Positions 1 through 31,498 of a stretch of DNA of 64,000 bases are shown here, one piece after another. The translations under genes were made by a program, and so were the position numbers. Every line of letters begins with the position of its first letter. Positions within the stretch are counted from its first letter, which is position 1. Below the pieces are notes generated by a model, which was not told the origin of the DNA, made no database searches, and saw only the letters and a program-made list of their open reading frames with translations. The stretch covers positions 6,948-70,947 of the forward strand of contig QZIW01000066.1 in the NCBI GenBank assembly GCA_003604985.1. The letters are read 5' to 3'. This stretch comes from Ammonifex sp. GTDB taxonomy: Bacteria > Bacillota > Desulfotomaculia > Desulfotomaculales > Ammonificaceae.

Positions 1-578
1 GTTATCTGCCCCGTATTGTTGACGATTTCAATATTCCGGCCCATCTCAGCGTTCTTCTGGATAATCATGGCTTTAGTAATGCCGAATTCCTTCAGCCGTT
101 CGAGCTCGCCAGTCTGGGCGTCGGCCACAGCCTCCACGGCTTGCATGATGTCCTTGTTCATCACGCCGGCCATATCCCCGATAGCAGGGAGCACTTTTTG
201 CGCTTCAAGACCGTAAGCTTGAAGCCGAACCGTCGCCTGTATGATGCTGTCAGTTTCAAAAGGCGTCCGGTTAGCAAAATCTACTGCCCAAGCCATCATA
301 GCCGCCGCTTTCTGCTGGTCTTTCATGACTACGTTCAAGGTATTGCGATAGTTTTCAAGGGCAACGGCGCCTTTCACACTACCAACAACCGCGGCCCCAA
401 ACCCTGCAGCCATAACTGCACCTACGGCTTTAATTGCCGTTCCAATCGCAGCCATTGCCGGTTCCAACTCCTGAGCCTGTTGGCTCAAACGCTGCATGGA
501 TGCCCGAGCTGCAGCTAATCCCTTTTGAAATCCAGCCATATTAAGGCTTAGGCGTACGGAAAGATCGCCAACTTGCAT
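1..578 (-). CDS. phage tail tape measure protein, N-terminal part (gene continues beyond left edge of window)
   Basis: Own minus-strand translation from ATG 578-576 behind AGGGGTGA: MQVGDLSVRLSLNMAGFQKGLAAARASMQRLSQQAQELEPAMAAIGTAIKAVGAVMAAGFGAAVVGSVKGAVALENYRNTLNVVMKDQQKAAAMMAWAVDFANRTPFETDSIIQATVRLQAYGLE.... Open to position 1. Absent from the ORF track because no stop lies in the window. Resembles the conserved TP901-type tape-measure N-terminal core and sits where that gene is expected, after the chaperone pair. Confidence 0.85.
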   Translation of the reverse strand, partial: MQVGDLSVRLSLNMAGFQKGLAAARASMQRLSQQAQELEPAMAAIGTAIKAVGAVMAAGFGAAVVGSVKGAVALENYRNTLNVVMKDQQKAAAMMAWAVDFANRTPFETDSIIQATVRLQAYGLEAQKVLPAIGDMAGVMNKDIMQAVEAVADAQTGELERLKEFGITKAMIIQKNAEMGRNIEIVNNTGQI

Positions 579-607
579 TGATGTCACCCCTGTCTATCGA
601 CTACAAT
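578..607 (+). promoter_or_regulatory. candidate sigma-A type promoter for the plus-strand moron
   Basis: TTGATG (578-583), 18-nt spacer, TACAAT (602-607). Lies 15-30 nt upstream of the RBS and start of the 622/637 ORF. The -35 overlaps the tape measure start codon. Confidence 0.4.
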
Positions 608-621
608 AGAAAAAACAACCA

Positions 622-1059
622 ATGGAGGTGTTTATTTTGGGGTTCTTAAGCGGTATCAAGCGTCAATTGACAACTCTCAATATAACTTACCTGGGCGGCC
701 ATCCTGACCTTACAAAATCACCAATTGCCGTTGGTGTCGGAAAAGAAGATGACATGATAGTCATCTATTTCGGCCCCACGTTTAGCCCTAAACTGAAAAT
801 ACCTAAAGCTGATGTCACGAACGTCACCCTCGAAAAAGCCAGCAAGCGCAGCCTTGGTAAGGCCGCTGCCGGGGCCATCGTCGGCGGTGTTCTCACCGGT
901 GGAATAGGTGCCATTGCCGGCGCGGCTCTTGGTGGGCGAAAAAAAGATGACAGTGTAATCGTAATGACGATCAAATACGGACCCGCTGAAGTCGACGTTC
1001 TTTTCGGCGGAGACGATGTAAGCAAAAAATATAGTCAATTTGTCGCTCTACTTCGCTAG
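622..1059 (+). CDS. hypothetical membrane-associated protein with C-terminal glycine-zipper segment (reverse-oriented moron in the tail module)
   Basis: 145-aa ORF. The likely real start is TTG 637, 8 nt after GGAGG (624-628). Contains GKAAAGAIVGGVLTGGIGAIAGAALGG (GxxxG repeats). The only plus-strand gene in a roughly 28-kb minus-strand block. Has its own promoter-like and terminator-like signals. Confidence 0.7.
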   Translation: MEVFILGFLSGIKRQLTTLNITYLGGHPDLTKSPIAVGVGKEDDMIVIYFGPTFSPKLKIPKADVTNVTLEKASKRSLGKAAAGAIVGGVLTGGIGAIAGAALGGRKKDDSVIVMTIKYGPAEVDVLFGGDDVSKKYSQFVALLR

Positions 1060-1283
1060 CGCCAACTCATCAACTCCTGCAACGAAAGCCGCTCCTGCGG
1101 CTTTTCCTTTTGTTCTCCCCCGTGGACCTGCAAATGCACCTCCGCCAGTCTCATCAACTTCCCCGGCGTACACCGCCAGAATGTTTCCTCATTCATCCCC
1201 AAAATAACCGTCCCCAGATACAGCAGCCAGACCCAATCCCACCCGCCGGACCCTACTTCTCCGGCGGGTTTTCTGCGTTTTTT
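1056..1283 (-). CDS. -1 frameshift extension of the tail assembly chaperone (gpGT-like fusion, 1056..1591 overall)
   Basis: After the slip, the -1 frame is open for 73 codons: RRKPAGEVGSGGWDWVWLLYLGTVILGMNEETFWRCTPGKLMRLAEVHLQVHGGEQKEKPQERLSLQELMSWR, stop at 1058-1056. Composition is protein-like and no independent start with an RBS is present. Confidence 0.7.
   Translation of the reverse strand, partial: KKRRKPAGEVGSGGWDWVWLLYLGTVILGMNEETFWRCTPGKLMRLAEVHLQVHGGEQKEKPQERLSLQELMSWR
1085..1111 (+). terminator. candidate rho-independent terminator of the moron
   Basis: AAAGCCGC-TCCT-GCGGCTTT hairpin (1085-1104) followed by a T-rich run, TCCTTTTG. Lies inside the frameshift extension of the opposite-strand chaperone gene. 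Confidence 0.5.
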
Positions 1284-1591
1284 TCGGGCTGAGGCAGCGC
1301 CTGGGAAATGGCTTCGTTCACCGCCTCAGTTACACGCTGTAAATCAGCGAGAGTTATCAGCCGGCCCACGTCTTTAACCGTCAACGCTTCGTCCTCATGC
1401 ACCAGCCCGGACCACAGCACGGCGCGCAGGGCCTTGACGCTTCCTTTAGCCAGCGCGTCCAAGGCCGCTTCCACGCTGCCCTGCTCTTCCTCCAGCGCCG
1501 CAAACGCATTTAAGTCGAATTTAAGCGTCCGCTCCTTGTCCAGAACCACTTTAACCGCCTTGGGCCGGATATCCGCAAGATTACTCATCAT
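1253..1591 (-). CDS. tail assembly chaperone (gpG-like, zero-frame product)
   Basis: 112-aa acidic ORF between the major tail gene and the tape measure gene. Ends just after an A_AAA_AAC slippery site. Confidence 0.8.
   Translation of the reverse strand: MMSNLADIRPKAVKVVLDKERTLKFDLNAFAALEEEQGSVEAALDALAKGSVKALRAVLWSGLVHEDEALTVKDVGRLITLADLQRVTEAVNEAISQALPQPEKNAENPPEK
1277..1283 (-). promoter_or_regulatory. programmed -1 ribosomal frameshift heptamer A_AAA_AAC
   Basis: Minus-strand codons are CCC GAA AAA AAC GCA. The heptamer is in the correct X_XXY_YYZ register 8 codons before the zero-frame stop. Confidence 0.7.
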
Positions 1592-1651
1592 ATCCCTCCT
1601 CCCTCCAAATAAAACTCCAGGGCGGCACTCAGGCCGCCCCCCCCCTTTTTT

Positions 1652-2218
1652 TTAGCTGATCGCCGTCGCCGTCTCGTTGATCACCACGGACAGCAACTTA
1701 TTCCCGGTCGCCTGGAGCGGGATGGCCTTCAGCTTCGCGCTCACCTTCGCGAAGTCTCCGTTCATACCTTCAAGCGAGAACTTCGGCGCGTCGGTGGTCT
1801 TTGCCTTGTGGATCACCACATGCACGTCCCCCAGTCCCGCGTCAACGTAGAGCGCTTGGCCCTCGATCTTGACGTAGCCCGGCTTGTCCCCATTTGCCAG
1901 GTCGTAGGTCTGTTTCTGGTTCGGCGTGGTGCCGCTGGCCGTCACAGCGCCGCCCATAAGTAACGCCAATACGTCAAGCGGCAATATGGCATTGTCGATA
2001 CCGATGTCCACGCTCTCCGGTTTCGAGAAAATGTCCAACAACACATTGTCACCGTGAAGCTCCTTGGTAACCATGTTGGGGGACACATCCAGCTTCAGTA
2101 TGCCGGGGATGTCCACCGGGCTGCCGTAAGTCGGCGATCCACCTGCCGGATCGGCGGTCAACGGAAACACTTTAGCGTCCTTAAGCTCAAGGACTTTTGT
2201 TTGGGTTGCAATCGGCAT
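1652..2218 (-). CDS. phage major tail protein
   Basis: 188-aa ORF directly upstream of the chaperone pair. Beta-rich and acidic, as expected for siphovirus tail tube proteins. Confidence 0.8.
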   Translation of the reverse strand: MPIATQTKVLELKDAKVFPLTADPAGGSPTYGSPVDIPGILKLDVSPNMVTKELHGDNVLLDIFSKPESVDIGIDNAILPLDVLALLMGGAVTASGTTPNQKQTYDLANGDKPGYVKIEGQALYVDAGLGDVHVVIHKAKTTDAPKFSLEGMNGDFAKVSAKLKAIPLQATGNKLLSVVINETATAIS

Positions 2219-7802: not shown

Positions 7803-9277
7803 TAACCTCCACCGCCCTCGCCGCCCCCGCCACCTTCGGCGCCCTGCTCGCCCGACTTAGGCAGTGTTATGTTGGGGGCGGGCGGCGTCCGTTCTTTTGC
7901 CGCCTTTCGAATGCGGTCGATCTCCTCCTGCAGCGCCTTGCCCTCCAGTCCGTCAAGCCGTCTGACGCTGCTCTCCAGGCTGGTATTTTCTGCAGCGAGC
8001 CGGGAAGCCTCGATTTCAGCCTGCTCCATCTGGTCGACCGGCAGGCCGTCCGCCCAGACGATGCGCGGGATAGCAGGCTCGTAATTGCTTTTCCCGAAAG
8101 TCACGTCAAGCACCTGAGCCGCATAGAGGATGTTCTTTAGGCCCTGGTCGAAATACAGCTTCTTCCGGTTGATCTTGGCCAGGGTGCGGATCAGCCGGAA
8201 CTTCAGCGCCCGGCCACTTTCCGCTACGCCGCTTTTATCCAAACCGAACGCCGCCGGGGAGATTTCGGACATTATCATAAGGAGCTCCAGGAACTTGTCG
8301 ATCTCCTTAAATGCCGCTTCGAGCTGGGCGTCCCAGACCAGGTACTTGGGCAGGTCCCCCACCATCGTCTGGTCAACCTCGACCACCTGGAGGAGCTCCT
8401 TTTCTATGTACCACATTTTGCGTTTCTCGTCGTACTTCATCAGGCCGGGCGGCAGAATGAGCTTGGGGTCAGAGTGCTTGTCAAGAATCCGGTCTACCCG
8501 GCTCACCCGGTTATTCAGCCCGTCGAAAAGGCTCTCCAGGTCCTCGTAATCGCTGATGCCCCAAAACATATCGTCAAGCCGCCAGTTGGGGACGTGCTCA
8601 ACCAGCAGCCCGGGGTACTTGGTCTCCTGCTCATCCTTCAGCCCGTCGTATTCGTCCAGCGTCTTCAGCGGCACCTTCATGCGTATTTGGCTGCCGTCAA
8701 GAAGCCAGAGTTCGTTCCGGATCAGGCCGGGTAGATGGATCTCTTTCCGCAGGTACTTTCTGTCATTGACCTCCTTCGTCCAGGCCAGGGTAGCCCCGGT
8801 CATTTCCTGGACGTTGTCGCCGTTCAGGTGAGGAAAGAAGACGTGCGCCGGCACGGACTCGATGATCGCCTGCTCGCCCTCGGACCAGTCCCGGTACTTG
8901 CCGAACCGGGCCTTATAGACGGCATCGCCCCGGTAGCTGCTTGACAGCGCCATTTCATAGTTGACGGTATGCAGGTTGTTGTTGTTGAAGATGTTGTCCA
9001 TGGCCTTCTGTTCCGGGCTGTCCTCGTCGCCCAGGACGGCACGGATCGGCTCCCCGAACAGCAGGTCGGCGCAGATTTTGCTGATCAGCCCGGCAAAGTT
9101 GCAGACGATGTAGATGACGGCCTTATCCGCTTCTTTTTCGAGCCACTGCTGCATCCGGGCGTAAACGTCGTCGTGTTTCCCCATGAACAGCAGCCGGAAT
9201 AAGGCATACTTTTCGATCCGCTGTTTGTGGCCCTCGGGCGGCCAGGTCTCCCATGTCTCCCATGTCAAAAGTATCAC
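7802..9277 (-). CDS. portal protein (SPP1 gp6-like)
   Basis: 491 aa immediately downstream of the large terminase. Acidic, with a Gly-rich C-terminus. Confidence 0.85.
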   Translation of the reverse strand: MILLTWETWETWPPEGHKQRIEKYALFRLLFMGKHDDVYARMQQWLEKEADKAVIYIVCNFAGLISKICADLLFGEPIRAVLGDEDSPEQKAMDNIFNNNNLHTVNYEMALSSSYRGDAVYKARFGKYRDWSEGEQAIIESVPAHVFFPHLNGDNVQEMTGATLAWTKEVNDRKYLRKEIHLPGLIRNELWLLDGSQIRMKVPLKTLDEYDGLKDEQETKYPGLLVEHVPNWRLDDMFWGISDYEDLESLFDGLNNRVSRVDRILDKHSDPKLILPPGLMKYDEKRKMWYIEKELLQVVEVDQTMVGDLPKYLVWDAQLEAAFKEIDKFLELLMIMSEISPAAFGLDKSGVAESGRALKFRLIRTLAKINRKKLYFDQGLKNILYAAQVLDVTFGKSNYEPAIPRIVWADGLPVDQMEQAEIEASRLAAENTSLESSVRRLDGLEGKALQEEIDRIRKAAKERTPPAPNITLPKSGEQGAEGGGGGEGGGG

Positions 9278-11207: not shown

Positions 11208-12130
11208 TCACCACCTAAATAATCGGCGGCCCAGTATTCTATGGCCTGCCAGAGGTTCTTTTTGCCCACATGGCCGTCTTCCTGCATCTGCTTGACGGCC
11301 CGCCTAACCACTTCGGCTGCCTCTTTAGGCATGGTGCCGCTGCCAAATATACTGGAGAGCGCAACCCAGGGCTCGTCATCCTCCCGTATGCCCACCTCCG
11401 CCACTATTTCCAGGGCCGTCCGCGCCATTACGGCGACCGCCGTGCCCGCAGACCGGATGTCCATAAATCGGGAGAACTTGATCACTGCGTCCGCAAACGC
11501 CTTAAACAACTCTATCGGCGCGACGGAGACCAGGTCTTGCCTGCCCTCTAAGCTGTTGATTAGCGCCTTCATGTCGTCCAGTTGGTGAGGAAGAAACACA
11601 AACGATACAGTCTTCCAGTCAAAGTCGACCTTCGGCGCTATAAGGGTGTCCAAGACGGCCTCCGGTTCGGTCAATATATCCTTGGGTAGATGGGCCTCCA
11701 GCATGTCGTCGACATCCGTTATAATTTGCGCTATTTGCCGGATGATGTTTTGGTCGTCGAACCCGCTGATGCTGTTATGTGCGAGCTGTTTAGCCGCTAT
11801 CTGCGAACGGCTCAGCCCCGACTCGTCCAGGAGCACGGTTATTTCCTTCAACCCCGCCTCCCTGGCCGCCCTGCTCCGGTGGTGGCCCGAGATTATTTCC
11901 ACCCTCCCGTTGACCAGGGCGCAGAAGGGCAGGCTTTCCAGGGAGCCACGCTTTTTCACGTTGGCGACCAGTTGTTTGAACATGGCCGGGTTCATGGTCC
12001 GAGCGTTGACATCTTGCTCCCGCAGGTTATCCAGGACAACTCTGGCTATGCTCAGTCCCTGGCCCAGTTCGATTATTTTTTCATAGACTTGGCCCTCGCC
12101 TTCCTCCACTGGGCTTCCTTCCTGAGCCAT
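11204..12130 (-). CDS. ParB-like nuclease domain protein
   Basis: 308 aa with ...VEIISGHHRSRAAREAGL..., a ParB/Srx N-terminal domain motif. Translationally coupled to the neighbouring genes. Confidence 0.75.
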   Translation of the reverse strand: MAQEGSPVEEGEGQVYEKIIELGQGLSIARVVLDNLREQDVNARTMNPAMFKQLVANVKKRGSLESLPFCALVNGRVEIISGHHRSRAAREAGLKEITVLLDESGLSRSQIAAKQLAHNSISGFDDQNIIRQIAQIITDVDDMLEAHLPKDILTEPEAVLDTLIAPKVDFDWKTVSFVFLPHQLDDMKALINSLEGRQDLVSVAPIELFKAFADAVIKFSRFMDIRSAGTAVAVMARTALEIVAEVGIREDDEPWVALSSIFGSGTMPKEAAEVVRRAVKQMQEDGHVGKKNLWQAIEYWAADYLGGE

Positions 12131-13506
12131 TCGGTTAATACCCCCTGTAGACTGTTGTCGTTCAAAGGCGCCTCGTATGTCAGGCGGTACCCCATCTTGG
12201 AATCCTTTGCCCGCCGCACGAGCTTCATAATGCCGCGTTCTTCTTTGCTTTCCGGTTTCGAAGTCAGCATGGCCGTGACCACGCTCTCGACTTTCTCGTA
12301 TTCCAGCGGAGAAAGCACCGGCTTGATCACCGCGCGGGTCAAGGCCGCCATTGACAGGAGCCGGCCCATGCGGAGCGTGTTATGGGGCGTCGTAACGCCG
12401 TAGGTCAGCAGCAGCGCCGTGCGCTCCTCCTGCCCGAACCTCCCGATGTTGAGCCAGCCTGGATCGTATCCGAACACGCCCGCCAGGTACCCGTCCACTT
12501 TTAAGGCCAAGTTGATCGGCGCCGATTTCCCGGCGAAGTTGTGCGTCCAAATAGACCGGTAGTACAGGGCGTTTGCCCTGGTGATGCTTTCCACCTCAAC
12601 GCGCGACCTCTCGGTAATAGCGTGATCCGCCGGCATCGGTGGCCCCTTGAGGGGCTCCATGGCGACCGGGCCTGGGCGGACGATTTTCTTTCCCCGCGCG
12701 AGAGCCTCTACCTCATCCGGCCTGTTTGTTGTAAGGTAGACATTTATGTTTTGGCGCACGCCGAAACGTGCGAATACGGGAGCGCCTGCGGTCTTACCCG
12801 GTTCGTTTTCCTCGTAGCAGATTACCAGGGCCTTTGCGTCCTTTGCCCACTGGCACATTAGTTTTACAAGGCCCGTTTCCGGGTCGAAGATTTCATATGG
12901 CGGTTCCTTCCACCGCATCCTTCCGCCGGTGTCGTACCACTTCTCAAAACCCGCCGTGTATGTGGGCGGGTTGATGCAGACAAGGGCCTCCGGGTCGGAC
13001 AGGACCTCCGTCAGGTGAGCCCACATGCAGAGCGGGCGGTACCTCATTCCTGAAAGCAGTTCCTTCGCCCGCTGTAGCTGCTTTCGGATTACGCCCACAT
13101 GGTGCTCTTGTCTTTTGTGCAGGTCGTGCAGCAACTCGGCGAAATATGTCTTGCCTGCCTTGGTAGCGGTTCTCAGGACCAGGTGCGTCCACAGGGCCAC
13201 GGCCGGGTCGGTCAAGTCCTCCCCCTCGTAGCCATCCGCCTCTAAGCGCAGCCCCGCCAGGTCCTGTCCCGTGATTGCGTAGCCCATTATCGAACTGAAC
13301 ATCGACACGTCGCTGGTGTCGATTTGGTCCGCTGGCCACCCGACAGACTGTGCTAAGTGAGCCATGGCGAAAGCCCCGGCGCATGGTTCTATAAACCGCG
13401 TGTAGCCCTGTCTCAAAGCGTTCTCGATAACCGCTTTCAAGAACGCCTGCTCTTTGGCAACCAGCGTGCCCAGGAAGAAAGAGCCTGGGTTCTGGAAACG
13501 TGCCAT
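12073..13506 (-). CDS. N6-adenine DNA methyltransferase (Dam-like N-terminal half) fused to an uncharacterised C-terminal domain of about 200 aa
   Basis: 477 aa. SAM motif FIEPCAGAF and catalytic INPPTY (an NPPY variant). I could not assign the C-terminal half. Confidence 0.7.
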   Translation of the reverse strand: MARFQNPGSFFLGTLVAKEQAFLKAVIENALRQGYTRFIEPCAGAFAMAHLAQSVGWPADQIDTSDVSMFSSIMGYAITGQDLAGLRLEADGYEGEDLTDPAVALWTHLVLRTATKAGKTYFAELLHDLHKRQEHHVGVIRKQLQRAKELLSGMRYRPLCMWAHLTEVLSDPEALVCINPPTYTAGFEKWYDTGGRMRWKEPPYEIFDPETGLVKLMCQWAKDAKALVICYEENEPGKTAGAPVFARFGVRQNINVYLTTNRPDEVEALARGKKIVRPGPVAMEPLKGPPMPADHAITERSRVEVESITRANALYYRSIWTHNFAGKSAPINLALKVDGYLAGVFGYDPGWLNIGRFGQEERTALLLTYGVTTPHNTLRMGRLLSMAALTRAVIKPVLSPLEYEKVESVVTAMLTSKPESKEERGIMKLVRRAKDSKMGYRLTYEAPLNDNSLQGVLTEWLRKEAQWRKARAKSMKK

Positions 13507-17309: not shown

Positions 17310-17987
17310 TTAATCCGCCCTAAGTCGGCGTTTTAATGCTTCCTCCAAAGAGGGTCCGCTAATCGAGCCTTGATCGCCAGGCCCGTACCTAATAGTCAGC
17401 TTATCCGCCCTCCTCCGGCCCACCGGCAGCCACCCCGGCAGGACATTAACCAGGTAGTCGAGCGCCAGGCGAAGCTCGGGAAACCACTTCGTCTGGTGAT
17501 ACTGCAGCCAATAGCTGGCCTGGTTCGCCGTGCCCCACAGGACAACGATCTTGCCCTGCCGGTACGCCTCGCGGATTTCCATCGACGTGCCGATGCAGGC
17601 CGCGTCCCGGGTGTCCATTTCCACCAGGATGATGTCGGCCATCTTAACGTCCATAAGGTCGGCGGAGATCACGTCCTGCGGGCAGTAAACGTCCCCTTCT
17701 TTTTGCCCGCGCAACGGGTTTAGCACCCGGTAGCCCCGCTTGACCAGTAGCGCCGTAGCCTGCAGCCGCCACTCGTTGGCGTCAGCGAAAGTGCGGCCTT
17801 GGATGGAGCCCGCCAGGTAGACGGTGATGGGGCCGTCGTAAAACAGGCACTTGCCGTTTTGCCACTGGTTCTCAGGTCGGGGAAACAGGAGGCATCCTTC
17901 TCCGGCGGGCGGGAAAGCGCACTTGCTGCAGCCTTCGCAGGGGTCTTGGAGACTGTGGAATTTAGTGAACAACTGTAAATCAGCCAC
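17310..17987 (-). CDS. nucleoside 2-deoxyribosyltransferase-like protein with N-terminal Cys cluster
   Basis: 225 aa. VYLAGSIQG...ADIILVEMD...GTSMEIREAYRQGKIVVLWG matches the NDT/Rcl fold pattern. N-terminal CEGCSKC...C. Confidence 0.6.
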   Translation of the reverse strand: MADLQLFTKFHSLQDPCEGCSKCAFPPAGEGCLLFPRPENQWQNGKCLFYDGPITVYLAGSIQGRTFADANEWRLQATALLVKRGYRVLNPLRGQKEGDVYCPQDVISADLMDVKMADIILVEMDTRDAACIGTSMEIREAYRQGKIVVLWGTANQASYWLQYHQTKWFPELRLALDYLVNVLPGWLPVGRRRADKLTIRYGPGDQGSISGPSLEEALKRRLRAD

Positions 17988-18891
17988 TTAATTTCCCTCC
18001 TCCGTCGACCGGCCAGGGCACCTCATCCCAGATCCTGCCGTCGAGCAGGCGGCCTGTACGCTCAGAACCAGGTATCAAACGGTCACACACAAAATCGGCA
18101 GCGCCTTTGAACGCGCCCCAAGACTTAAAAAAGAAGGGCGTTCCGCTTGCCTGGCACTGGTCCCGTAGGCTCCGCACCCAATCAGGGTGGCAGGGACGGG
18201 CACCGGGGCCAGTTTCGGAGCCGCAGATAATCCAACTGATGGCGTTGGTTCCATCGGGATTGCAACGGGGTCCCGAAGGTTCGCCGTAGCGGTCGTAAAC
18301 CGAAAGATACGGTTCAAGGTCTATTGACCCCAATAGAGGTTCACACGAAACAAATCTCACCGCCGCCGGTATCTGAAGTAGTATCGGTATCCGCTTGTCA
18401 GCCATCTCTTGGTTTTCGGCGGTGACACCGAGGAATACATGCTTGTATTCACGCGGCCAGGCATTGAAGCCAACCCAATCGGAGTACCACCGGATAAACT
18501 CTGCCATCCGATGAGGCCGTTTCGTCAGAACCAAAAAGGCATGTCGCTTACAGTGGTGCATGTGTCCGAAAGCTTTGCGGATAAACTCAAGCGGCACGTC
18601 CTCATGGAAAAGGTCGTTCCATACCGCCCAAACGATAGACTTTCTTGTCCGCAGCGGAAGGTCTAAGTTCTGCTCCAACAGCCGGATATGCCCGTTCCAT
18701 TGGCCCCTCGTATTCGTCAGTCCGCCGTACCGCGCAAACATTTTCAGGTTCGCTTGGCCCGCCCGCATGTGTGCCTGAGAAGCCGCCCAACAGTTAGCGC
18801 AGCCTTCAGATACCGGTGTGCAACCTTCAACCAGTGACCAGGCCCGCTGCCAGTACATGCCCTTTTCCAGCCGTTTAGGCGAAACGTACAA
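17980..18891 (-). CDS. phage Gp37/Gp68 family protein (DUF5131)
   Basis: 303 aa. WSLVEGCTPVSEGCANCWA at the N-terminus and ...WIICGSETGPGARP..., typical of DUF5131. Confidence 0.75.
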   Translation of the reverse strand: MYVSPKRLEKGMYWQRAWSLVEGCTPVSEGCANCWAASQAHMRAGQANLKMFARYGGLTNTRGQWNGHIRLLEQNLDLPLRTRKSIVWAVWNDLFHEDVPLEFIRKAFGHMHHCKRHAFLVLTKRPHRMAEFIRWYSDWVGFNAWPREYKHVFLGVTAENQEMADKRIPILLQIPAAVRFVSCEPLLGSIDLEPYLSVYDRYGEPSGPRCNPDGTNAISWIICGSETGPGARPCHPDWVRSLRDQCQASGTPFFFKSWGAFKGAADFVCDRLIPGSERTGRLLDGRIWDEVPWPVDGGGKLSG

Positions 18892-19284: not shown

Positions 19285-20145
19285 TTAGCCCTCCTTGTTA
19301 AAAATCGTTACCTGCTCCACGGTCAAGGTCGCCGCGGCCACCGGGTTGATCCATAGTGTCTCGGTGCGCCGCCGGCCTCCCTCCGCTAAGGCCCTGGTGG
19401 TTTTGCGTTTCCAATGGCTTAGCCGGTCCTGGTATAACTGGCAGTCATAGCCCGATATGAGGACCGGGCCGGGGTGCTGGTCCAGGGCGTCCAAAAGCTC
19501 CGCGTGCTGCTCGTCGGTCATTTCGTGGGCGTATTGCGCCTTTTCTCTTCGGGTGGCCAGTAAATACGGCGGGTCCGCGTAGATCAGGACGCACGGGTGC
19601 TTATATCGTTCAATCAGTTGCATTGCGGGCTGGTTCTCTATTTGCGCCTGTTTAAGCCTTTCCGCTACGGCGAGGATCCGGACCGGCAAGCTGTTCCATA
19701 TCTTCGCGCAACTGGTCCCTTGCCTTCCCTGGATGTCGTTTCTCCAGCCCGTGCGGTGGCATAGCTTTGTGCCGCGGGCCATCCAGCAGCGAACCAGGAA
19801 CCGGCGGGCGTCCTCGAGAGCTTCGCCCGTTCGTTCGTAGCTTTCGTAATACTCTGCCCTCGCCCACGGTGTCTTTTCAATTAGGGCTGCCATGCCCTTT
19901 GGTCTTTCCCTAATAACCCGGAAGAGGTTGACGACGTCGCCGTTAATATCGTTAATAGTCTCGGTATGCGACGGGGGTTTAACGAAAAAGACCGCGCCGC
20001 TTCCAAAAAAGGGCTCAAGATAGGTTGAATGTGGCGGGAAATGTTTAACAATCCAACGCGCTATATTCCACTTCGAGCCCGGGTACCTTAAAACTGGCTT
20101 AAGCTCTGCCGGTCTCACGAACAACCGCCCCTTCCTCGGCCTCAT
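19285..20145 (-). CDS. DNA adenine methyltransferase (D12/Dam class)
   Basis: 286 aa. LRYPGSKW, LEPFFGSGAVFF and YADPPYL motifs. Confidence 0.85.
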   Translation of the reverse strand: MRPRKGRLFVRPAELKPVLRYPGSKWNIARWIVKHFPPHSTYLEPFFGSGAVFFVKPPSHTETINDINGDVVNLFRVIRERPKGMAALIEKTPWARAEYYESYERTGEALEDARRFLVRCWMARGTKLCHRTGWRNDIQGRQGTSCAKIWNSLPVRILAVAERLKQAQIENQPAMQLIERYKHPCVLIYADPPYLLATRREKAQYAHEMTDEQHAELLDALDQHPGPVLISGYDCQLYQDRLSHWKRKTTRALAEGGRRRTETLWINPVAAATLTVEQVTIFNKEG

Positions 20146-25339: not shown

Positions 25340-26419
25340 TTAGCGGAGTAAGGCACCGGGCAGCCAGTCCACGAACTGGTCCAGCAGCCCCTGGTCCTTG
25401 CAGACTTTCGACAGGTCTTTTATCTCCAGCGGATTGTTGATGTCCGGCGAGAAGAACACGCCGGCCAGTTCGAGCACTTTTTCCCTCGTAATACCCATCG
25501 CGTAAACGGCCTGCCAGAACTCATTCCACTTGATCTTGCCGTTCCCGCTGTTGCCGTTTTGCCGGGCTGGGCCGGCTTGAGCTTCCGGAGCAGGTTGCGG
25601 ACCGGGTTTCGGCGGCGGCTCCTTGGTCTCGGCTGGCCCGCCTTCGGACCCGTTAACTACCTCGCCGTCTATAACCTTGCCGTCCGCGAGCACGTCCGGC
25701 GGGAAAAGGTCGTCCGGGGCTTCGTTCATGTCCAGGTCGATGCCCTGGGGAAGCGCATTTTCCTGGGGTATCGACTTCAGCATTTGCTCAAGCGTTAAAT
25801 GCTGATAGTGCAAGTCCAGGACGTAGACCGTTTTCTTCTTGCCCTCCACCGTGGCCTCATGCGGCTTGACCATCAGCTTCAGCGGAATCATGGCAATACG
25901 GCCACCAGTGAGTGACATTAAGAATCTAATGGCGCTGTTGAGGTTCAGGATCGTGTTGATGCTTCTGCTGTCCAGTTGCCAGCAGCCGATACCGGGAACC
26001 TTTGGCAGCAGGAACATCAGCGTGCCCACCGCTAGGCATTGTTTATTCTGGTACCACTCGCAGGTGTCGGGATTGCAGTCGATCTCCCGCAGCTCTCCGG
26101 TCTCCCGGTCCGCCTCTACCGCCTTCACCCCGTCGCCTTTGCAGATCAGGCCCGTGCCTTTTCCATAGCGCCGGTACCACTGCGGGAAGAAAGTTTCGAT
26201 ATTGTGTACCGGAAACATGATGTCGAGCACCTTGGGCTTTTCGCCGTAGACGTCGTGGAAAGCCTTGGCCATTGACTCCGGCGTGGACTGATCGGGATTG
26301 ACGACGAAATAGTCGACAGGTTTGGGGTAAGAAGACCGCTGCCCTTCCACCTTGACGCCCAGGCGGACCTTGCCCAGCCGGGGCAGCCTGGTACGCTCGG
26401 AAAGATTCTTAATCGGCAT
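25340..26419 (-). CDS. conserved-looking phage early protein with Cys-rich core, function unknown
   Basis: 359 aa. ...LICKGDG...IDCNPDTCEWYQNKQC.... Pro/Gly-rich linker followed by a small C-terminal domain. Confidence 0.55.
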   Translation of the reverse strand: MPIKNLSERTRLPRLGKVRLGVKVEGQRSSYPKPVDYFVVNPDQSTPESMAKAFHDVYGEKPKVLDIMFPVHNIETFFPQWYRRYGKGTGLICKGDGVKAVEADRETGELREIDCNPDTCEWYQNKQCLAVGTLMFLLPKVPGIGCWQLDSRSINTILNLNSAIRFLMSLTGGRIAMIPLKLMVKPHEATVEGKKKTVYVLDLHYQHLTLEQMLKSIPQENALPQGIDLDMNEAPDDLFPPDVLADGKVIDGEVVNGSEGGPAETKEPPPKPGPQPAPEAQAGPARQNGNSGNGKIKWNEFWQAVYAMGITREKVLELAGVFFSPDINNPLEIKDLSKVCKDQGLLDQFVDWLPGALLR

Positions 26420-29849: not shown

Positions 29850-30342
29850 CCACTTGTTGCTAATTGCCTCGTTTTTGGGCGCCAGGGTGACGTATTCCGA
29901 CCTTCACGCCATACATCCAAAACTCGAGGCCTATACGAGATTCCCGGCGATCCATCTTGATAAATCCCTGGAGTGCCGTCCGCGCCAGCACAGGTGCGTT
30001 CTTGCCGAAGAGATCGGGCATGTCTGCTACCCGCCCAGACCGGGCCATGTGGCCTACCACGTCGCCGGCTCGTGGAACTCCCTGGATTATGAGGCCCGCG
30101 ACGGCTTGGCGGTAATTGTAGCCCAGGACGAACGCAAAGCCCTAAAGTGGGCAACCGGGCTGTTGATACCCAATAGCGCTTTCTGGCGCTTTGCTGGGAA
30201 AGGGCCACAAAGTATGGAAGACTGGCTGGAGGAGTTCGACGTGGAAAGGTGGTTCTTGGAAGCCAAAATCGGCCTGATCCGCGTAAGTCAGCCACCGAGG
30301 CAGCGGCTGCAGTGGAGGAATCTGATCAAACGCTCAATGTAA
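29830..30342 (+). CDS. ImmA/IrrE-like metalloprotease homolog with variant EEIGH motif
   Basis: ATG 29830 overlaps the repressor 3' end. ...CVLAEEIGHVCYPP... and ...ERKALKWATGLLIP align with HExxH ... E..An.FA..LL.P of the family. Confidence 0.65.
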   Translation: MGTITIDHLLLIASFLGARVTYSDLHAIHPKLEAYTRFPAIHLDKSLECRPRQHRCVLAEEIGHVCYPPRPGHVAYHVAGSWNSLDYEARDGLAVIVAQDERKALKWATGLLIPNSAFWRFAGKGPQSMEDWLEEFDVERWFLEAKIGLIRVSQPPRQRLQWRNLIKRSM

Positions 30343-31189
30343 AGGCGTTTCTCTGTACCTGCCTATGCTTCGCTGAAACTGCCAAACGACTTCTACAGCA
30401 GGAATGTTGTATGGTTCTAAGCATCTGCTGGAACTCCATCATCCCCCTGTTGGCGATGTTCAATTCGCCGTCAAAGCGGTAAGCGCGCGGGTCTGACTCC
30501 GACCCGTACTCAGTTATTGCGGAAAAATCTATACTGCCGGTTAGTTCTGCAATGTCCTGCGACTTCGGGTCGGACGGTGTGAACGTGCCGATACCCACTC
30601 TTTTCTCCTCCGAAAAAAGGACCCGTTCCACCGGCACTTCTTCTATTCCGCCGCTGAATTCGGTCTCCAACCGCAGTCGACATGCAGGACAGAGTTCACC
30701 CTCAATGTGGATCCCGTACTCTTCCTGAAACTCGCCCCGCAACTCGCGCGGGATAAGGTGGAGCGGTTCTTCGTGCATTGGACACCCTTTGATGCCGTAC
30801 AGTGCCCCCTCGTCCGTCCGGCTGTACTCTTCAAGCCCCCGTTTCAGCATGTTCACCAGTGTGGATTTGCCGCCGCTCACCGGGCCCATTAACAGCAGGA
30901 TCCGCTTACGGACGTCCAACCGGCGCGCTGCAGGGTGAAAGTATTCTTCAACAAGCTTTTCAAGCGTTCGGTCCAGCCCAAAAAGCTCCCGGTTAAAAAA
31001 GCAATAACGTTTTTGGCCATTAACCTCCTCAACGCCGGCTGCAGTAATCAAATCGTATAACCGGCTGTGCGCTAACCGGCACACGTGCGGGTTCTTCCGG
31101 ACTATTTCGAGATACTCCCGGAAGCTTCCCTCCCAGGCCAAACGTTGCTTGGCCGTGCGGTATTCTTCCAAGCGCCTCAAAAAGTACAA
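30326..31189 (-). pseudogene. prkA: prkA (PrkA serine protein kinase / AAA ATPase) truncated after about 258 codons by the prophage junction
   Basis: TTG 31189 behind AGGAGGGG. MYFLRRLEEYRTAKQRLAWEGSFREYLEIV..., Walker A LLLMGPVSGGKST, ...GSESDPRAYRFDGELNIANRGMMEFQQML. Resemblance to PrkA stops near 30416, then 29 unrelated codons run into phage DNA. Confidence 0.8.
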
Positions 31190-31498
31190 ACCTACCCCTC
31201 CTGGAACAGTCGTCGGCCCTTGGACGTCAGTCGCCCATGTTAAAAAATCTTCATGGCTTAGCCGGTAGTCGGTGGCCGGTGGGTCAGTGGTAGCGCCAAA
31301 TAACCTCGCTTCAATGAAATATATGCTTTCCGGAAGGTAAAAAGGACGGCATATCCGGCCGATAGCCCGAAAGCGCATTTGTCAAACAGTGGAATGACAA
31401 TCTGAATATATTATTACGGAAGGTAGAATCTCCAAGGAGGTTGCGTTTTACGGTCGCCGGCTTGCCTGAAACCGTTTTCAGGCAGGCTCCCAAAAACC

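What the first reader, a model, noticed from the sequence alone, without database searches (positions are those of the whole stretch)
579..1111. Reverse-strand glycine-zipper moron wedged between tail chaperone and tape measure genes
In a roughly 28-kb run of minus-strand phage genes, one plus-strand cassette sits exactly between the gpGT-like chaperone stop (1056) and the tape measure start (578). This junction is normally uninterrupted.
- Promoter: TTGATG-18-TACAAT.
- Translation signals: a GGAGG RBS with a TTG or ATG start.
- Terminator: a hairpin followed by a T-run.
- Product: about 140 aa, with a small N-terminal beta-rich domain (ITYLGGHPDL...IVIYFGP...) followed by a GxxxG glycine-zipper stretch, GKAAAGAIVGGVLTGGIGAIAGAALGG.

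Autonomous expression from a lysogen together with a membrane-perturbing motif is the usual signature of a lysogenic-conversion, superinfection-exclusion or abortive-infection effector. I do not recognise the family.
Basis: partly seen in the sequence, partly recalled or inferred. Interest (0 to 1): 0.65.

Follow-up and report, generated by a model that had tools for sequence, protein, structure and literature searches.

The report
Antisense prophage moron beside tape-measure gene
A small stand-alone gene sits backwards between a prophage's tail-chaperone and tape-measure genes; it encodes a split PH-fold protein with a glycine-zipper membrane segment, from a catalogued family that nobody has studied, and is a plausible but untested candidate for blocking infection by rival phages.

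Summary
A plus-strand gene (TTG 637 to stop 1059, 140 aa) fills the gap between the tape-measure start (576-578, minus) and the frameshifted chaperone stop (1056, minus). It has a promoter-like site, a GGAGG ribosome-binding site, a hairpin plus T-run terminator, and lower GC3 than its neighbours.

The family is not unknown. Close homologues carry Pfam PF27000, 'PH_gly_zipper', which has no characterised member. The AlphaFold model is a PH/PTB-like sandwich, with the highly conserved zipper inserted between strands 5 and 6.

It meets the in-silico criteria for a moron:
- One phage with a related chaperone (L103) runs straight from chaperone to tape measure. All 18 loci with related tape-measure genes lack the gene.
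- Other relatives carry different cargo at the same junction.
- Ten of 70 non-redundant family loci lie within 71 nt of a tape-measure start, in both sipho- and myophages and on either strand.
- Other members sit in other prophage accessory sites, a restriction-type island, or plain chromosome.

This junction is where the first described moron lies: HK97 gene 15, an inner-membrane exclusion protein. I infer a lysogen-expressed membrane protein, most likely blocking genome entry. The function is untested.

The parts
578..607 (+). Sigma-70-type promoter-like site, TTGATG-18-TACAAT. The -35 hexamer abuts the tape-measure start codon on the other strand.
   Evidence: 9 of 12 matches. By eye, -10-like hexamers sit at the equivalent place in L002 (TGgTACAAT) and L001 (TATAAT), though the scans of those loci reported no qualifying promoter there. 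Not significant on its own.
624..628 (+). GGAGG ribosome-binding site, 8 nt upstream of TTG 637
   Evidence: The same GGAGG placement occurs in L002 and L001.
637..1059 (+). PH_gly_zipper gene, 140 aa plus stop (TTG start; the alternative ATG 622 gives 145 aa)
   Evidence: There are 181 homologues, nearly all carrying PF27000. The protein scores 191 bits against a profile built from them.
643..672 (+). N-terminal helix (residues 3-12, GFLSGIKRQL), moderately amphipathic. It belongs to the conserved MGF(F/L)..K N-terminus.
   Evidence: AlphaFold helix 3-12. Hydrophobic moment 0.47; motif present in 65 of 173 members.
676..834 (+). First half of the PH-like sandwich (strands 1-5), including the near-invariant YLGGHP motif
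   Evidence: pLDDT about 90; Y18, G21 and P23 conserved; PH/PTB domains are the top fold matches.
847..948 (+). Glycine-zipper insert, RSLGK-AAAGAIVGGVLTGGIGAIAGAALGG-RKKD. The hydrophobic core is 25 aa, with basic residues on both sides.
   Evidence: Invariant S72, G74, K75, G79, G83, G91, G95, G99. Mean Kyte-Doolittle hydropathy 1.58. Low pLDDT in the monomer model.
955..1053 (+). Second half of the PH-like domain (strands 6-7 and the C-terminal helix)
   Evidence: pLDDT 92-96; Y132 near-invariant.
1084..1115 (+). Intrinsic-terminator-like hairpin plus T-run. It is embedded in the last codons of the chaperone's frameshift extension on the other strand.
   Evidence: -14.5 kcal/mol, z = -3.7. 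A homologous hairpin occurs in L002, and unrelated hairpins with T-runs occur at the same place in L001 and L005.
1..578 (-). Flank: N-terminal 192 aa of the tape-measure protein. The gene runs off the window.
   Evidence: PF20155 TMP_3; phrog_973 at 7e-20.
1056..1591 (-). Flank: tail assembly chaperone G (1253-1591) and its -1 frameshift G-T product. The slippery site A_AAA_AAC is at 1283-1277 and the stop at 1056.
   Evidence: The T extension is 68% identical in L002 and 51% in L103.

Best explanation
This is a moron: an accessory, independently transcribed one-gene cassette wedged antisense between the tail assembly chaperone and tape-measure genes of a temperate siphophage. The host is a Peptococcaceae- or Desulfotomaculia-like Bacillota.

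Its product belongs to the uncharacterised Pfam family PF27000 (PH_gly_zipper). It has an N-terminal amphipathic helix, then a cytoplasmic PH-like beta-sandwich. The loop between strands 5 and 6 of that sandwich is replaced by a 25-residue glycine-zipper segment flanked by basic residues.

Shown here:
- the gene and its signals;
- family membership and fold;
- that the junction is uninterrupted, or holds other cargo, in related phages;
- that family members recur next to tape-measure start codons in unrelated tail modules.

Inferred:
- The gene is transcribed from its own promoter in the lysogen. During lytic growth, opposing late transcription would silence it.
- There is no signal peptide, and both halves of the PH domain must lie on the same side of the membrane. 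The zipper would therefore dip into the inner leaflet as a re-entrant hairpin and drive oligomerisation.
- The assembly acts at the cytoplasmic membrane against superinfecting phages, most likely at the step where the incoming tape-measure protein opens the channel for DNA entry. HK97 gp15, encoded at the same junction, works at that step.
For: Gene and signals.

Family: 181 homologues, nearly all carrying PF27000, named PH_gly_zipper. At E <= 1e-10 there are 255 clusters at 50% identity.

Fold: pLDDT 80, pTM 0.67, a seven-strand sandwich plus a C-terminal helix with the zipper between strands 5 and 6. All top PDB fold matches are PTB or PH domains.

Moron criteria:
- L103, whose chaperone is 54% identical, runs straight from chaperone to tape measure.
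- L105 and L106 carry an antisense HD-domain gene at the same junction, and L107 carries an unrelated 286-aa gene.
- None of 18 loci with related tape-measure genes has the gene.
- GC3 is 0.475 against 0.54-0.78 in neighbours.

Independent transcription:
- Terminator hairpins follow the stop codon in the window, L002, L001 and L005.
- In L005 the gene is co-directional with the tail genes, yet it still has promoter-like and terminator-like sites.

Recurrence: 10 of 70 non-redundant loci lie within 71 nt of a tape-measure start, and none at a tape-measure end. They include sipho- and myophages and both strands.

Other members sit in typical prophage cargo or defence sites:
- next to a serine recombinase;
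- in a methylase/helicase island;
- upstream of terminase;
- after lysis genes;
- next to a KAP NTPase.

Temperate lifestyle: a repressor and an ImmA-type protease lie on the plus strand at 29.4-30.3 kb.

Precedents: HK97 gene 15 lies between the chaperone and tape-measure genes and encodes an inner-membrane exclusion protein whose effect depends on the incoming tail (PMC3594210). Tab and SNIPE also act through tape-measure proteins (PMC10884400; PMC13190303).
Against: - There are no expression data and no phenotype for any family member. I found no paper on the family.
- There is no match to known defence proteins (PADLOC) and no homology to gp15/YebO.
- The promoter match is no better than chance on its own.
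- Six of the ten copies next to a tape-measure gene are co-directional with it. Several lie 12-55 nt from its start; I scanned only L005 of these for a terminator. They may be late-expressed.
- Some members lie in ordinary chromosomal neighbourhoods, so the ancestral role need not be anti-phage.
- The zipper is modelled with low confidence (pLDDT about 47). Its membrane topology is inference.
- The zipper has no significant similarity to the hydrophobic segments of the neighbouring tape-measure proteins.
Confidence: 0.4

Rival explanations
1. It is a host-fitness or membrane-homeostasis factor, not an anti-phage one. PH_gly_zipper proteins would be general stabilisers or stress proteins of the inner membrane face, and prophages carry them as ordinary lysogenic-conversion cargo.
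For: Family members occur in plain chromosomal contexts:
- Ferruginibacter, among leucine-biosynthesis and transporter genes;
- Paenibacillus and Oceanobacillus, next to ATP sulfurylase, a nucleoside transporter and a phosphonate-binding protein.

Many members carry a C-terminal SHOCT domain, which is common on membrane-associated oligomeric proteins (PMC3581485). Other glycine-zipper proteins are proposed membrane stabilisers (YfgH preprint, listed). No toxin or enzyme domain is fused in any architecture I examined.
Against: It does not explain why 10 of 70 loci abut a tape-measure start codon in unrelated tail modules. Nor does it explain the neighbours in restriction-type and KAP NTPase contexts.
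Confidence: 0.2
2. It is an abortive-infection effector. The PH domain senses an infection cue, and the glycine zippers then assemble into a pore that depolarises the cell.
For: Glycine zippers can permeabilise membranes; the T6SS effector Tde1 needs one to cross the target cell's membrane (PMC10240207, listed). Bacterial PH domains are reported to form oligomeric rings (PMC3581485, citing Xu et al. 2010). The zipper is extremely conserved. The gene occurs in defence-type neighbourhoods.
Against: The 25-residue zipper sits inside a folded domain, so a membrane-spanning pore is geometrically awkward. No partner, antitoxin or sensor gene is conserved beside it. There is no PADLOC hit. Constitutive expression of a pore former from a lysogen would be costly.
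Confidence: 0.15
3. It is a late-expressed accessory factor for the tape-measure protein. It would shield that protein's hydrophobic segments during tail assembly, or help form the channel during the phage's own infection.
For: The gene lies strictly next to tape-measure start codons. Six copies are co-directional and close to the tape-measure start (12-55 nt); I checked only one of them, L005, for a terminator. The Bacillaceae-type copies carry long coiled-coil N-terminal extensions.
Against: The window copy and three other lineages are antisense to the late operon. All 18 loci with tape-measure N-termini 54-78% identical to the window's do without the gene. Many family members are not in tail modules at all. 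Even the co-directional L005 copy has a terminator-like hairpin in front of the tape-measure gene.
Confidence: 0.1

Closest known systems
HK97 gene 15 moron (gp15, YebO-like superinfection exclusion protein)
   Same: It occupies the same genomic slot, between the tail assembly chaperone and tape-measure genes. It is an accessory unit of the kind defined by its own promoter and terminator, and it encodes a small protein that acts at the inner membrane. gp15 is expressed from the prophage and blocks genome entry in a way that depends on the incoming phage's tail (PMC3594210).
   Different: There is no sequence relationship (no YebO match). gp15 is described as a small protein that inserts into the inner membrane. 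This protein is a split PH fold with an internal glycine zipper and no N-terminal membrane anchor. The window copy is antisense to the tail operon. The function here is untested.
Pfam PF27000 (PH_gly_zipper)
   Same: The window protein is a typical single-domain member. Its 99%-identical relative P0001 and nearly all homologues carry the family. The fold and zipper position fit the family name.
   Different: Membership gives a name and nothing more. I found no characterised member and no paper. The local Pfam copy lacks the model, so membership rests on precomputed hits to homologues and on my own profile.
Prophage and host proteins that act through the tape-measure protein: Tab, Ltp, SNIPE
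   Same: All are phage-resistance factors whose specificity maps to, or which associate with, the incoming or assembling tape-measure protein. Tab is also a moron inside a late operon (PMC10884400; PMC3952083; PMC13190303).
   Different: These proteins are unrelated to this one. Tab lies between the terminase genes and blocks assembly. Ltp is a surface lipoprotein. SNIPE is a nuclease. No interaction between PH_gly_zipper and a tape-measure protein has been shown.
Glycine-zipper hairpin membrane proteins (C19orf12-like; SlyB/YfgH-type lipoproteins)
   Same: They share a short Gly/Ala-rich zipper. There is a weak match to C19orf12-like over the zipper (E 0.12 for the window protein; 6e-4 for P0244). 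From my own knowledge, C19orf12 is also thought to be a soluble domain interrupted by a glycine-zipper hairpin.
   Different: The matches fall below Pfam thresholds and cover only the low-complexity zipper. There is no lipoprotein signal. The cellular compartment differs, and there is no homology outside the zipper.

Membership tests
Pfam PF27000 PH_gly_zipper | Match to the family profile | tested here: met
   The evidence is indirect. P0001 (99% identical) and nearly all of the 120 listed homologues carry PF27000, named PH_gly_zipper. The window protein scores 191 bits against a profile built from 72 members. The model is absent from the local Pfam copy.
Pfam PF27000 PH_gly_zipper | PH-like fold interrupted by a glycine zipper | tested here: met
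   The AlphaFold model has five strands, the zipper, two strands and a C-terminal helix. The top 50 PDB fold matches are almost all PTB or PH domains, with TM about 0.5 and E about 1e-2.
Phage moron (Juhala/Hendrix sense) | Inserted between two genes that are adjacent in related phages | tested here: met
   L103 runs from chaperone to tape measure with no insert. None of 18 loci with related tape-measure genes has the gene.
Phage moron (Juhala/Hendrix sense) | Own promoter and terminator | tested here: inconclusive
   Consensus-like sites are present and positionally conserved. The promoter match alone is at chance level, and there are no transcript data.
Phage moron (Juhala/Hendrix sense) | Base composition differs from the flanking genes | tested here: met
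   GC3 is 0.475 against 0.54-0.78 in the window. It is the lowest GC3 of the genes compared in each of L001, L002, L005, L009 and L065 (only the tape-measure gene was compared in L065).
Phage moron (Juhala/Hendrix sense) | Expressed from the repressed prophage | not testable with these tools
   Needs RNA-seq or 5'-RACE of a lysogen.
HK97 gp15 / YebO exclusion proteins | Sequence homology to gp15/YebO | tested here: not met
   No such family appears in the Pfam, NCBIfam or PHROG results.
HK97 gp15 / YebO exclusion proteins | Gene located between the tail chaperone and tape-measure genes | tested here: met
   PMC3594210.
HK97 gp15 / YebO exclusion proteins | Blocks genome entry of superinfecting phage | not testable with these tools
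   Needs plaque and DNA-injection assays.
Known anti-phage defence systems (PADLOC-DB v2) | Match to any defence-protein model | tested here: not met
   0 families at E <= 1.
Curated glycine-zipper and bacterial PH families in Pfam (Gly-zipper_*, Rick_17kDa_Anti, bPH_*) | Profile match above threshold | tested here: not met
   Only sub-threshold hits to DUF6861 and C19orf12 over the zipper. bPH_3 appears only as an extra N-terminal domain in one multidomain relative, P0244.

The most novel reading that the evidence does not exclude
PH_gly_zipper proteins are a widespread, so far unrecognised family of prophage-encoded blockers of phage genome entry, or another membrane-level defence. They would work through a new architecture: a ring-forming cytoplasmic PH domain that pushes a glycine-zipper hairpin into the inner leaflet. 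Their repeated placement next to the tape-measure start would reflect action on the tape-measure channel.
Probability: 0.25. Interest if true: 0.7.

Novelty: new variant of a known kind. Interest (0 to 1): 0.5.

Why it matters
Morons at the chaperone/tape-measure junction are the textbook example of prophage cargo, but few have an assigned function. Here an uncharacterised protein family recurs at that junction. It appears in sipho- and myophage tail modules of several Bacillota lineages and one MAG labelled Betaproteobacteria.

If the family blocks genome entry or otherwise defends the lysogen, it would add a new fold to the small set of proteins known to act at the injection step. It would also give PF27000 a function. 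Other cargo at the same junction, such as the HD-domain gene in L105/L106, suggests this slot could be mined systematically for prophage-encoded defence genes in Gram-positive anaerobes.

If the gene is only a membrane housekeeping protein carried along by phages, the finding is an ordinary annotation.

Tried and rejected
1. The zipper as a mimic of the tape-measure protein's own membrane segments. BLASTP of the zipper against ten neighbouring tape-measure proteins gave nothing better than E about 0.06, all low-complexity matches. Unsupported.

2. The gene and the tape-measure 5' region travelling together as a module. This was suggested by 48-51% identity of tape-measure N-termini in L001 and L005. 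I rejected it because 18 loci with closer tape-measure N-termini (54-78%) lack the gene.

3. Isolated phages. tblastn of the window protein, P0041 and P0183 against 50,697 phage records found no match. The low-complexity filter may mask the zipper.

4. Sequence search of the PDB gave only a chance-level hit. NCBIfam gave only sub-threshold zipper hits. PADLOC gave none.

5. The viral structure library gave weak PH-like matches only, and none with a known function.

6. Fusion of the domain to the chaperone in the Bacillaceae-type 325-aa proteins. I rejected this because the N-terminal 200 aa are a K/E-rich coiled coil, and separate chaperone genes lie upstream.

7. Literature searches for the family name, and for glycine zipper combined with prophage or with PH domain, found nothing on this family.

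8. The primary HK97 gp15 paper (PMC3430355) is not held. I used the authors' open commentary instead.

Full report
**Observation**

On the minus strand the tape-measure gene starts at 576-578 and runs off the left end of the window; its 192 N-terminal residues match PF20155 and phrog_973. The tail assembly chaperone G is at 1253-1591 (phrog_2115 at 1e-26; Phage_TAC_11). A canonical -1 slippery heptamer, A_AAA_AAC, lies at 1283-1277. It extends G into a 175-aa G-T product that stops at 1056. The extension is 68% identical in the related locus L002 and 51% in L103.

Between these two genes, on the plus strand, lies an ORF from 622 to 1059. The real start is probably TTG 637, for three reasons:
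- GGAGG at 624-628 is 8 nt upstream of it.
- The 99%-identical database protein P0001 is 140 aa and begins MGFLSG.
- An N-terminus of MG followed by two hydrophobic residues is found in 65 of 173 family members.

The promoter-like site TTGATG-18-TACAAT (578-607) and the hairpin 1084-1105 followed by a T-run were both picked up by the scan. The promoter match alone is at chance level: 2 found against 1.8 expected. The hairpin is stable (-14.5 kcal/mol, z = -3.7). It is conserved base for base in L002. Unrelated hairpins with T-runs occupy the same position in L001 and L005. In the window and in L002 the hairpin lies inside the last codons of the chaperone's T extension on the other strand.

**What the protein is**

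A search of 5.8 billion protein clusters returned 181 homologues. Nearly all carry Pfam PF27000, and many also carry a C-terminal SHOCT domain. The context tables name PF27000 'PH_gly_zipper'. The local Pfam copy lacks this model, which is why the window protein itself showed only sub-threshold zipper hits.

A profile search of 1.84 billion representatives found 255 clusters at E <= 1e-10 and 63 at E <= 1e-30. The family is real but small.

In a 72-sequence alignment the invariant positions are G21 of a YLGGHP motif, plus S72, G74, K75, G79, G83, G91, G95 and G99. That gives a G-x3-G ladder across a 25-residue Gly/Ala-rich core, bracketed by RS.GK and GGRKKD.

The AlphaFold model (pLDDT 80, pTM 0.67) has these elements in order:
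- an N-terminal helix;
- five strands;
- the zipper, at low confidence;
- two more strands;
- a C-terminal helix.

Foldseek against the PDB returns almost only PTB and PH domains, with TM about 0.5. The 'small beta-rich domain followed by a zipper' is therefore one PH-like domain split by the zipper.

There is no signal peptide. Both halves of the domain must lie on the same side of the membrane, and basic residues flank the zipper. From this I infer a cytoplasmic domain with the zipper entering the inner leaflet as a re-entrant hairpin, helped by the amphipathic N-terminal helix. This is inference, not a result.

**Is it a moron?**

The surrounding element is a temperate phage. From left to right the window holds:
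- tail, head, portal and terminase genes;
- replication genes and a recombination-directionality-factor-like gene, all on the minus strand;
- a plus-strand repressor (HTH_3) and an ImmA-type protease at 29.4-30.3 kb.

The host's PrkA is 71-81% identical to those of Peptococcaceae, Desulfofundulus and Pelotomaculum genomes.

Phages with related chaperones show that the insertion is optional:
- L103 (chaperone 54% identical) goes directly from chaperone to tape measure.
- L105 and L106 have an antisense 206-aa HD-domain gene at the same junction.
- L107 has an unrelated 286-aa gene there.

Among 18 loci whose tape-measure N-termini are 54-78% identical to the window's, from both siphophage and myophage tail modules, none encodes a PH_gly_zipper protein.

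The gene's GC3 is 0.475, against 0.54-0.78 for its neighbours. The same tendency is seen in five other loci.

L002 is a true relative of the window phage: capsid 77%, tape-measure N-terminus 68%, chaperone 64% identical. It carries the gene at 67% identity in the same antisense position. The insertion is therefore old and has been maintained in this lineage.

**Recurrence next to the tape-measure gene**

I surveyed 117 fetched loci with my own ORF calls, a family profile, and an iterative tape-measure search. Ten of 70 non-redundant family loci have the gene within 71 nt of a tape-measure start codon, and none lies next to a tape-measure stop.

| Orientation relative to tape-measure gene | Loci |
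|---|---|
| Antisense (4) | window; L002; L001 (Desulfoscipio); L065 (a MAG labelled Uliginosibacterium) |
| Co-directional (6) | L005 (Syntrophomonas myophage, between a TAC_7 chaperone and the tape measure); L009, L010, L011, L013 (Bacillaceae-type siphophages, tape measures of 1,700-1,950 aa); L047 |

In L001 other genes, an antirepressor among them, lie between this gene and the chaperone, yet it still abuts the tape-measure start. In L005 the co-directional copy still has a promoter-like site upstream and a 9-bp hairpin plus T-run before the tape-measure gene, so it too looks like a self-contained unit.

Other family members lie in:
- other prophage cargo sites: beside a serine recombinase, upstream of terminase, after the lysis genes;
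- a methylase/helicase island;
- beside a KAP NTPase;
- ordinary chromosomal neighbourhoods.

**Mechanism**

I found no paper on the family and no characterised member. PADLOC has no match.

The best guide is position. The first moron ever named, HK97 gene 15, lies between the tail chaperone and tape-measure genes. It is expressed from the prophage, inserts in the inner membrane, and blocks genome entry in a way that depends on the incoming phage's tail (PMC3594210). Tab, Ltp and SNIPE show that the tape-measure protein is a repeated target of resistance factors.

I therefore favour a lysogen-expressed, membrane-associated protein that interferes with superinfecting phages at the membrane, most likely at genome entry. 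My confidence in that whole chain is about 0.4. That it is an accessory PH_gly_zipper moron is far more secure than what it does.

The rivals are:
- a general membrane-homeostasis factor carried as cargo (0.2);
- a gated pore-forming abortive-infection effector (0.15);
- a late-expressed tape-measure accessory factor (0.1).

The accessory-factor idea is weakened by the antisense copies and by the many close tape-measure relatives that lack the gene.

Two attractive ideas failed when tested. The zipper shows no significant similarity to tape-measure hydrophobic segments. The gene and the tape-measure 5' end do not travel as a unit.

**Novelty and verdict**

The specific function remains inference. 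The family is catalogued but uncharacterised, and the junction has a classic precedent, so this is a new variant of a known kind rather than something categorically new.

Its interest lies in the recurrent tape-measure-adjacent placement of an unstudied split-PH/glycine-zipper protein, which makes a clear, testable candidate for a new injection-step resistance factor. Interest 0.5.

Noticed in passing
window 30326-31378 (-), with the prophage end near 30.3 kb: The host PrkA ORF is only 350 aa, and homologues align only up to about residue 321; from my own knowledge, PrkA is usually about 630 aa. The prophage's repressor/ImmA module abuts it. The prophage may therefore be integrated inside prkA, a sporulation-associated gene, like the intervening elements of spore formers. 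A Gp3-like recombination directionality factor lies at 25340-26419.
   Followed up: partly
L105 5554-6174 (-); L106 5554-6174 (-); L107 5398-6258 (+): Phages with chaperones about 52% identical to the window's carry different cargo at the same chaperone/tape-measure junction. L105 and L106 have an antisense 206-aa HD-domain protein; L107 has an unrelated 286-aa protein. The junction looks like a cargo hot spot in this phage group.
   Followed up: partly
window 1619-1655: A GC-rich hairpin (GGCGGCACTCAGGCCGCC) lies between the major tail gene and the chaperone gene. It has a run of C then T on the plus strand and a T-rich tail on the minus strand, so it may be a two-way terminator or an attenuator that lowers chaperone expression. 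L002 has the same element at about 8975-9000.
   Followed up: no
L007 8001-8666 (protein P0021): One family member, 55% identical to the window protein, is fused at its C-terminus to a ribosomal protein L7/L12 C-terminal domain (PF00542, E 4e-22). It sits after the lysis genes of a prophage.
   Followed up: no
L009 6389-7375, L011, L013 (proteins P0183, P0189, P0193): In Bacillaceae-type siphophages the family domain is preceded by a K/E-rich coiled-coil region of 150-200 aa. The gene lies 12-51 nt upstream of very long tape-measure genes (1,696-1,946 aa). I did not scan these loci for a terminator. These copies may be expressed late with the tail genes.
   Followed up: partly
window 12073-13506 (-), 17980-18891 (-), 19285-20145 (-): The prophage carries a DAM-like methylase fused to a phage GNAT-like domain, a DUF5131 protein, and a separate D12-class adenine methyltransferase. 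These may be anti-restriction or DNA-modification cargo.
   Followed up: no
L033 7405-8802; L113 1-5545: Family members lie 2 nt upstream of a KAP-family P-loop NTPase (L033), and beside an N6/N4 methylase plus ResIII helicase pair (L113). Both are defence-island-like neighbourhoods.
   Followed up: no
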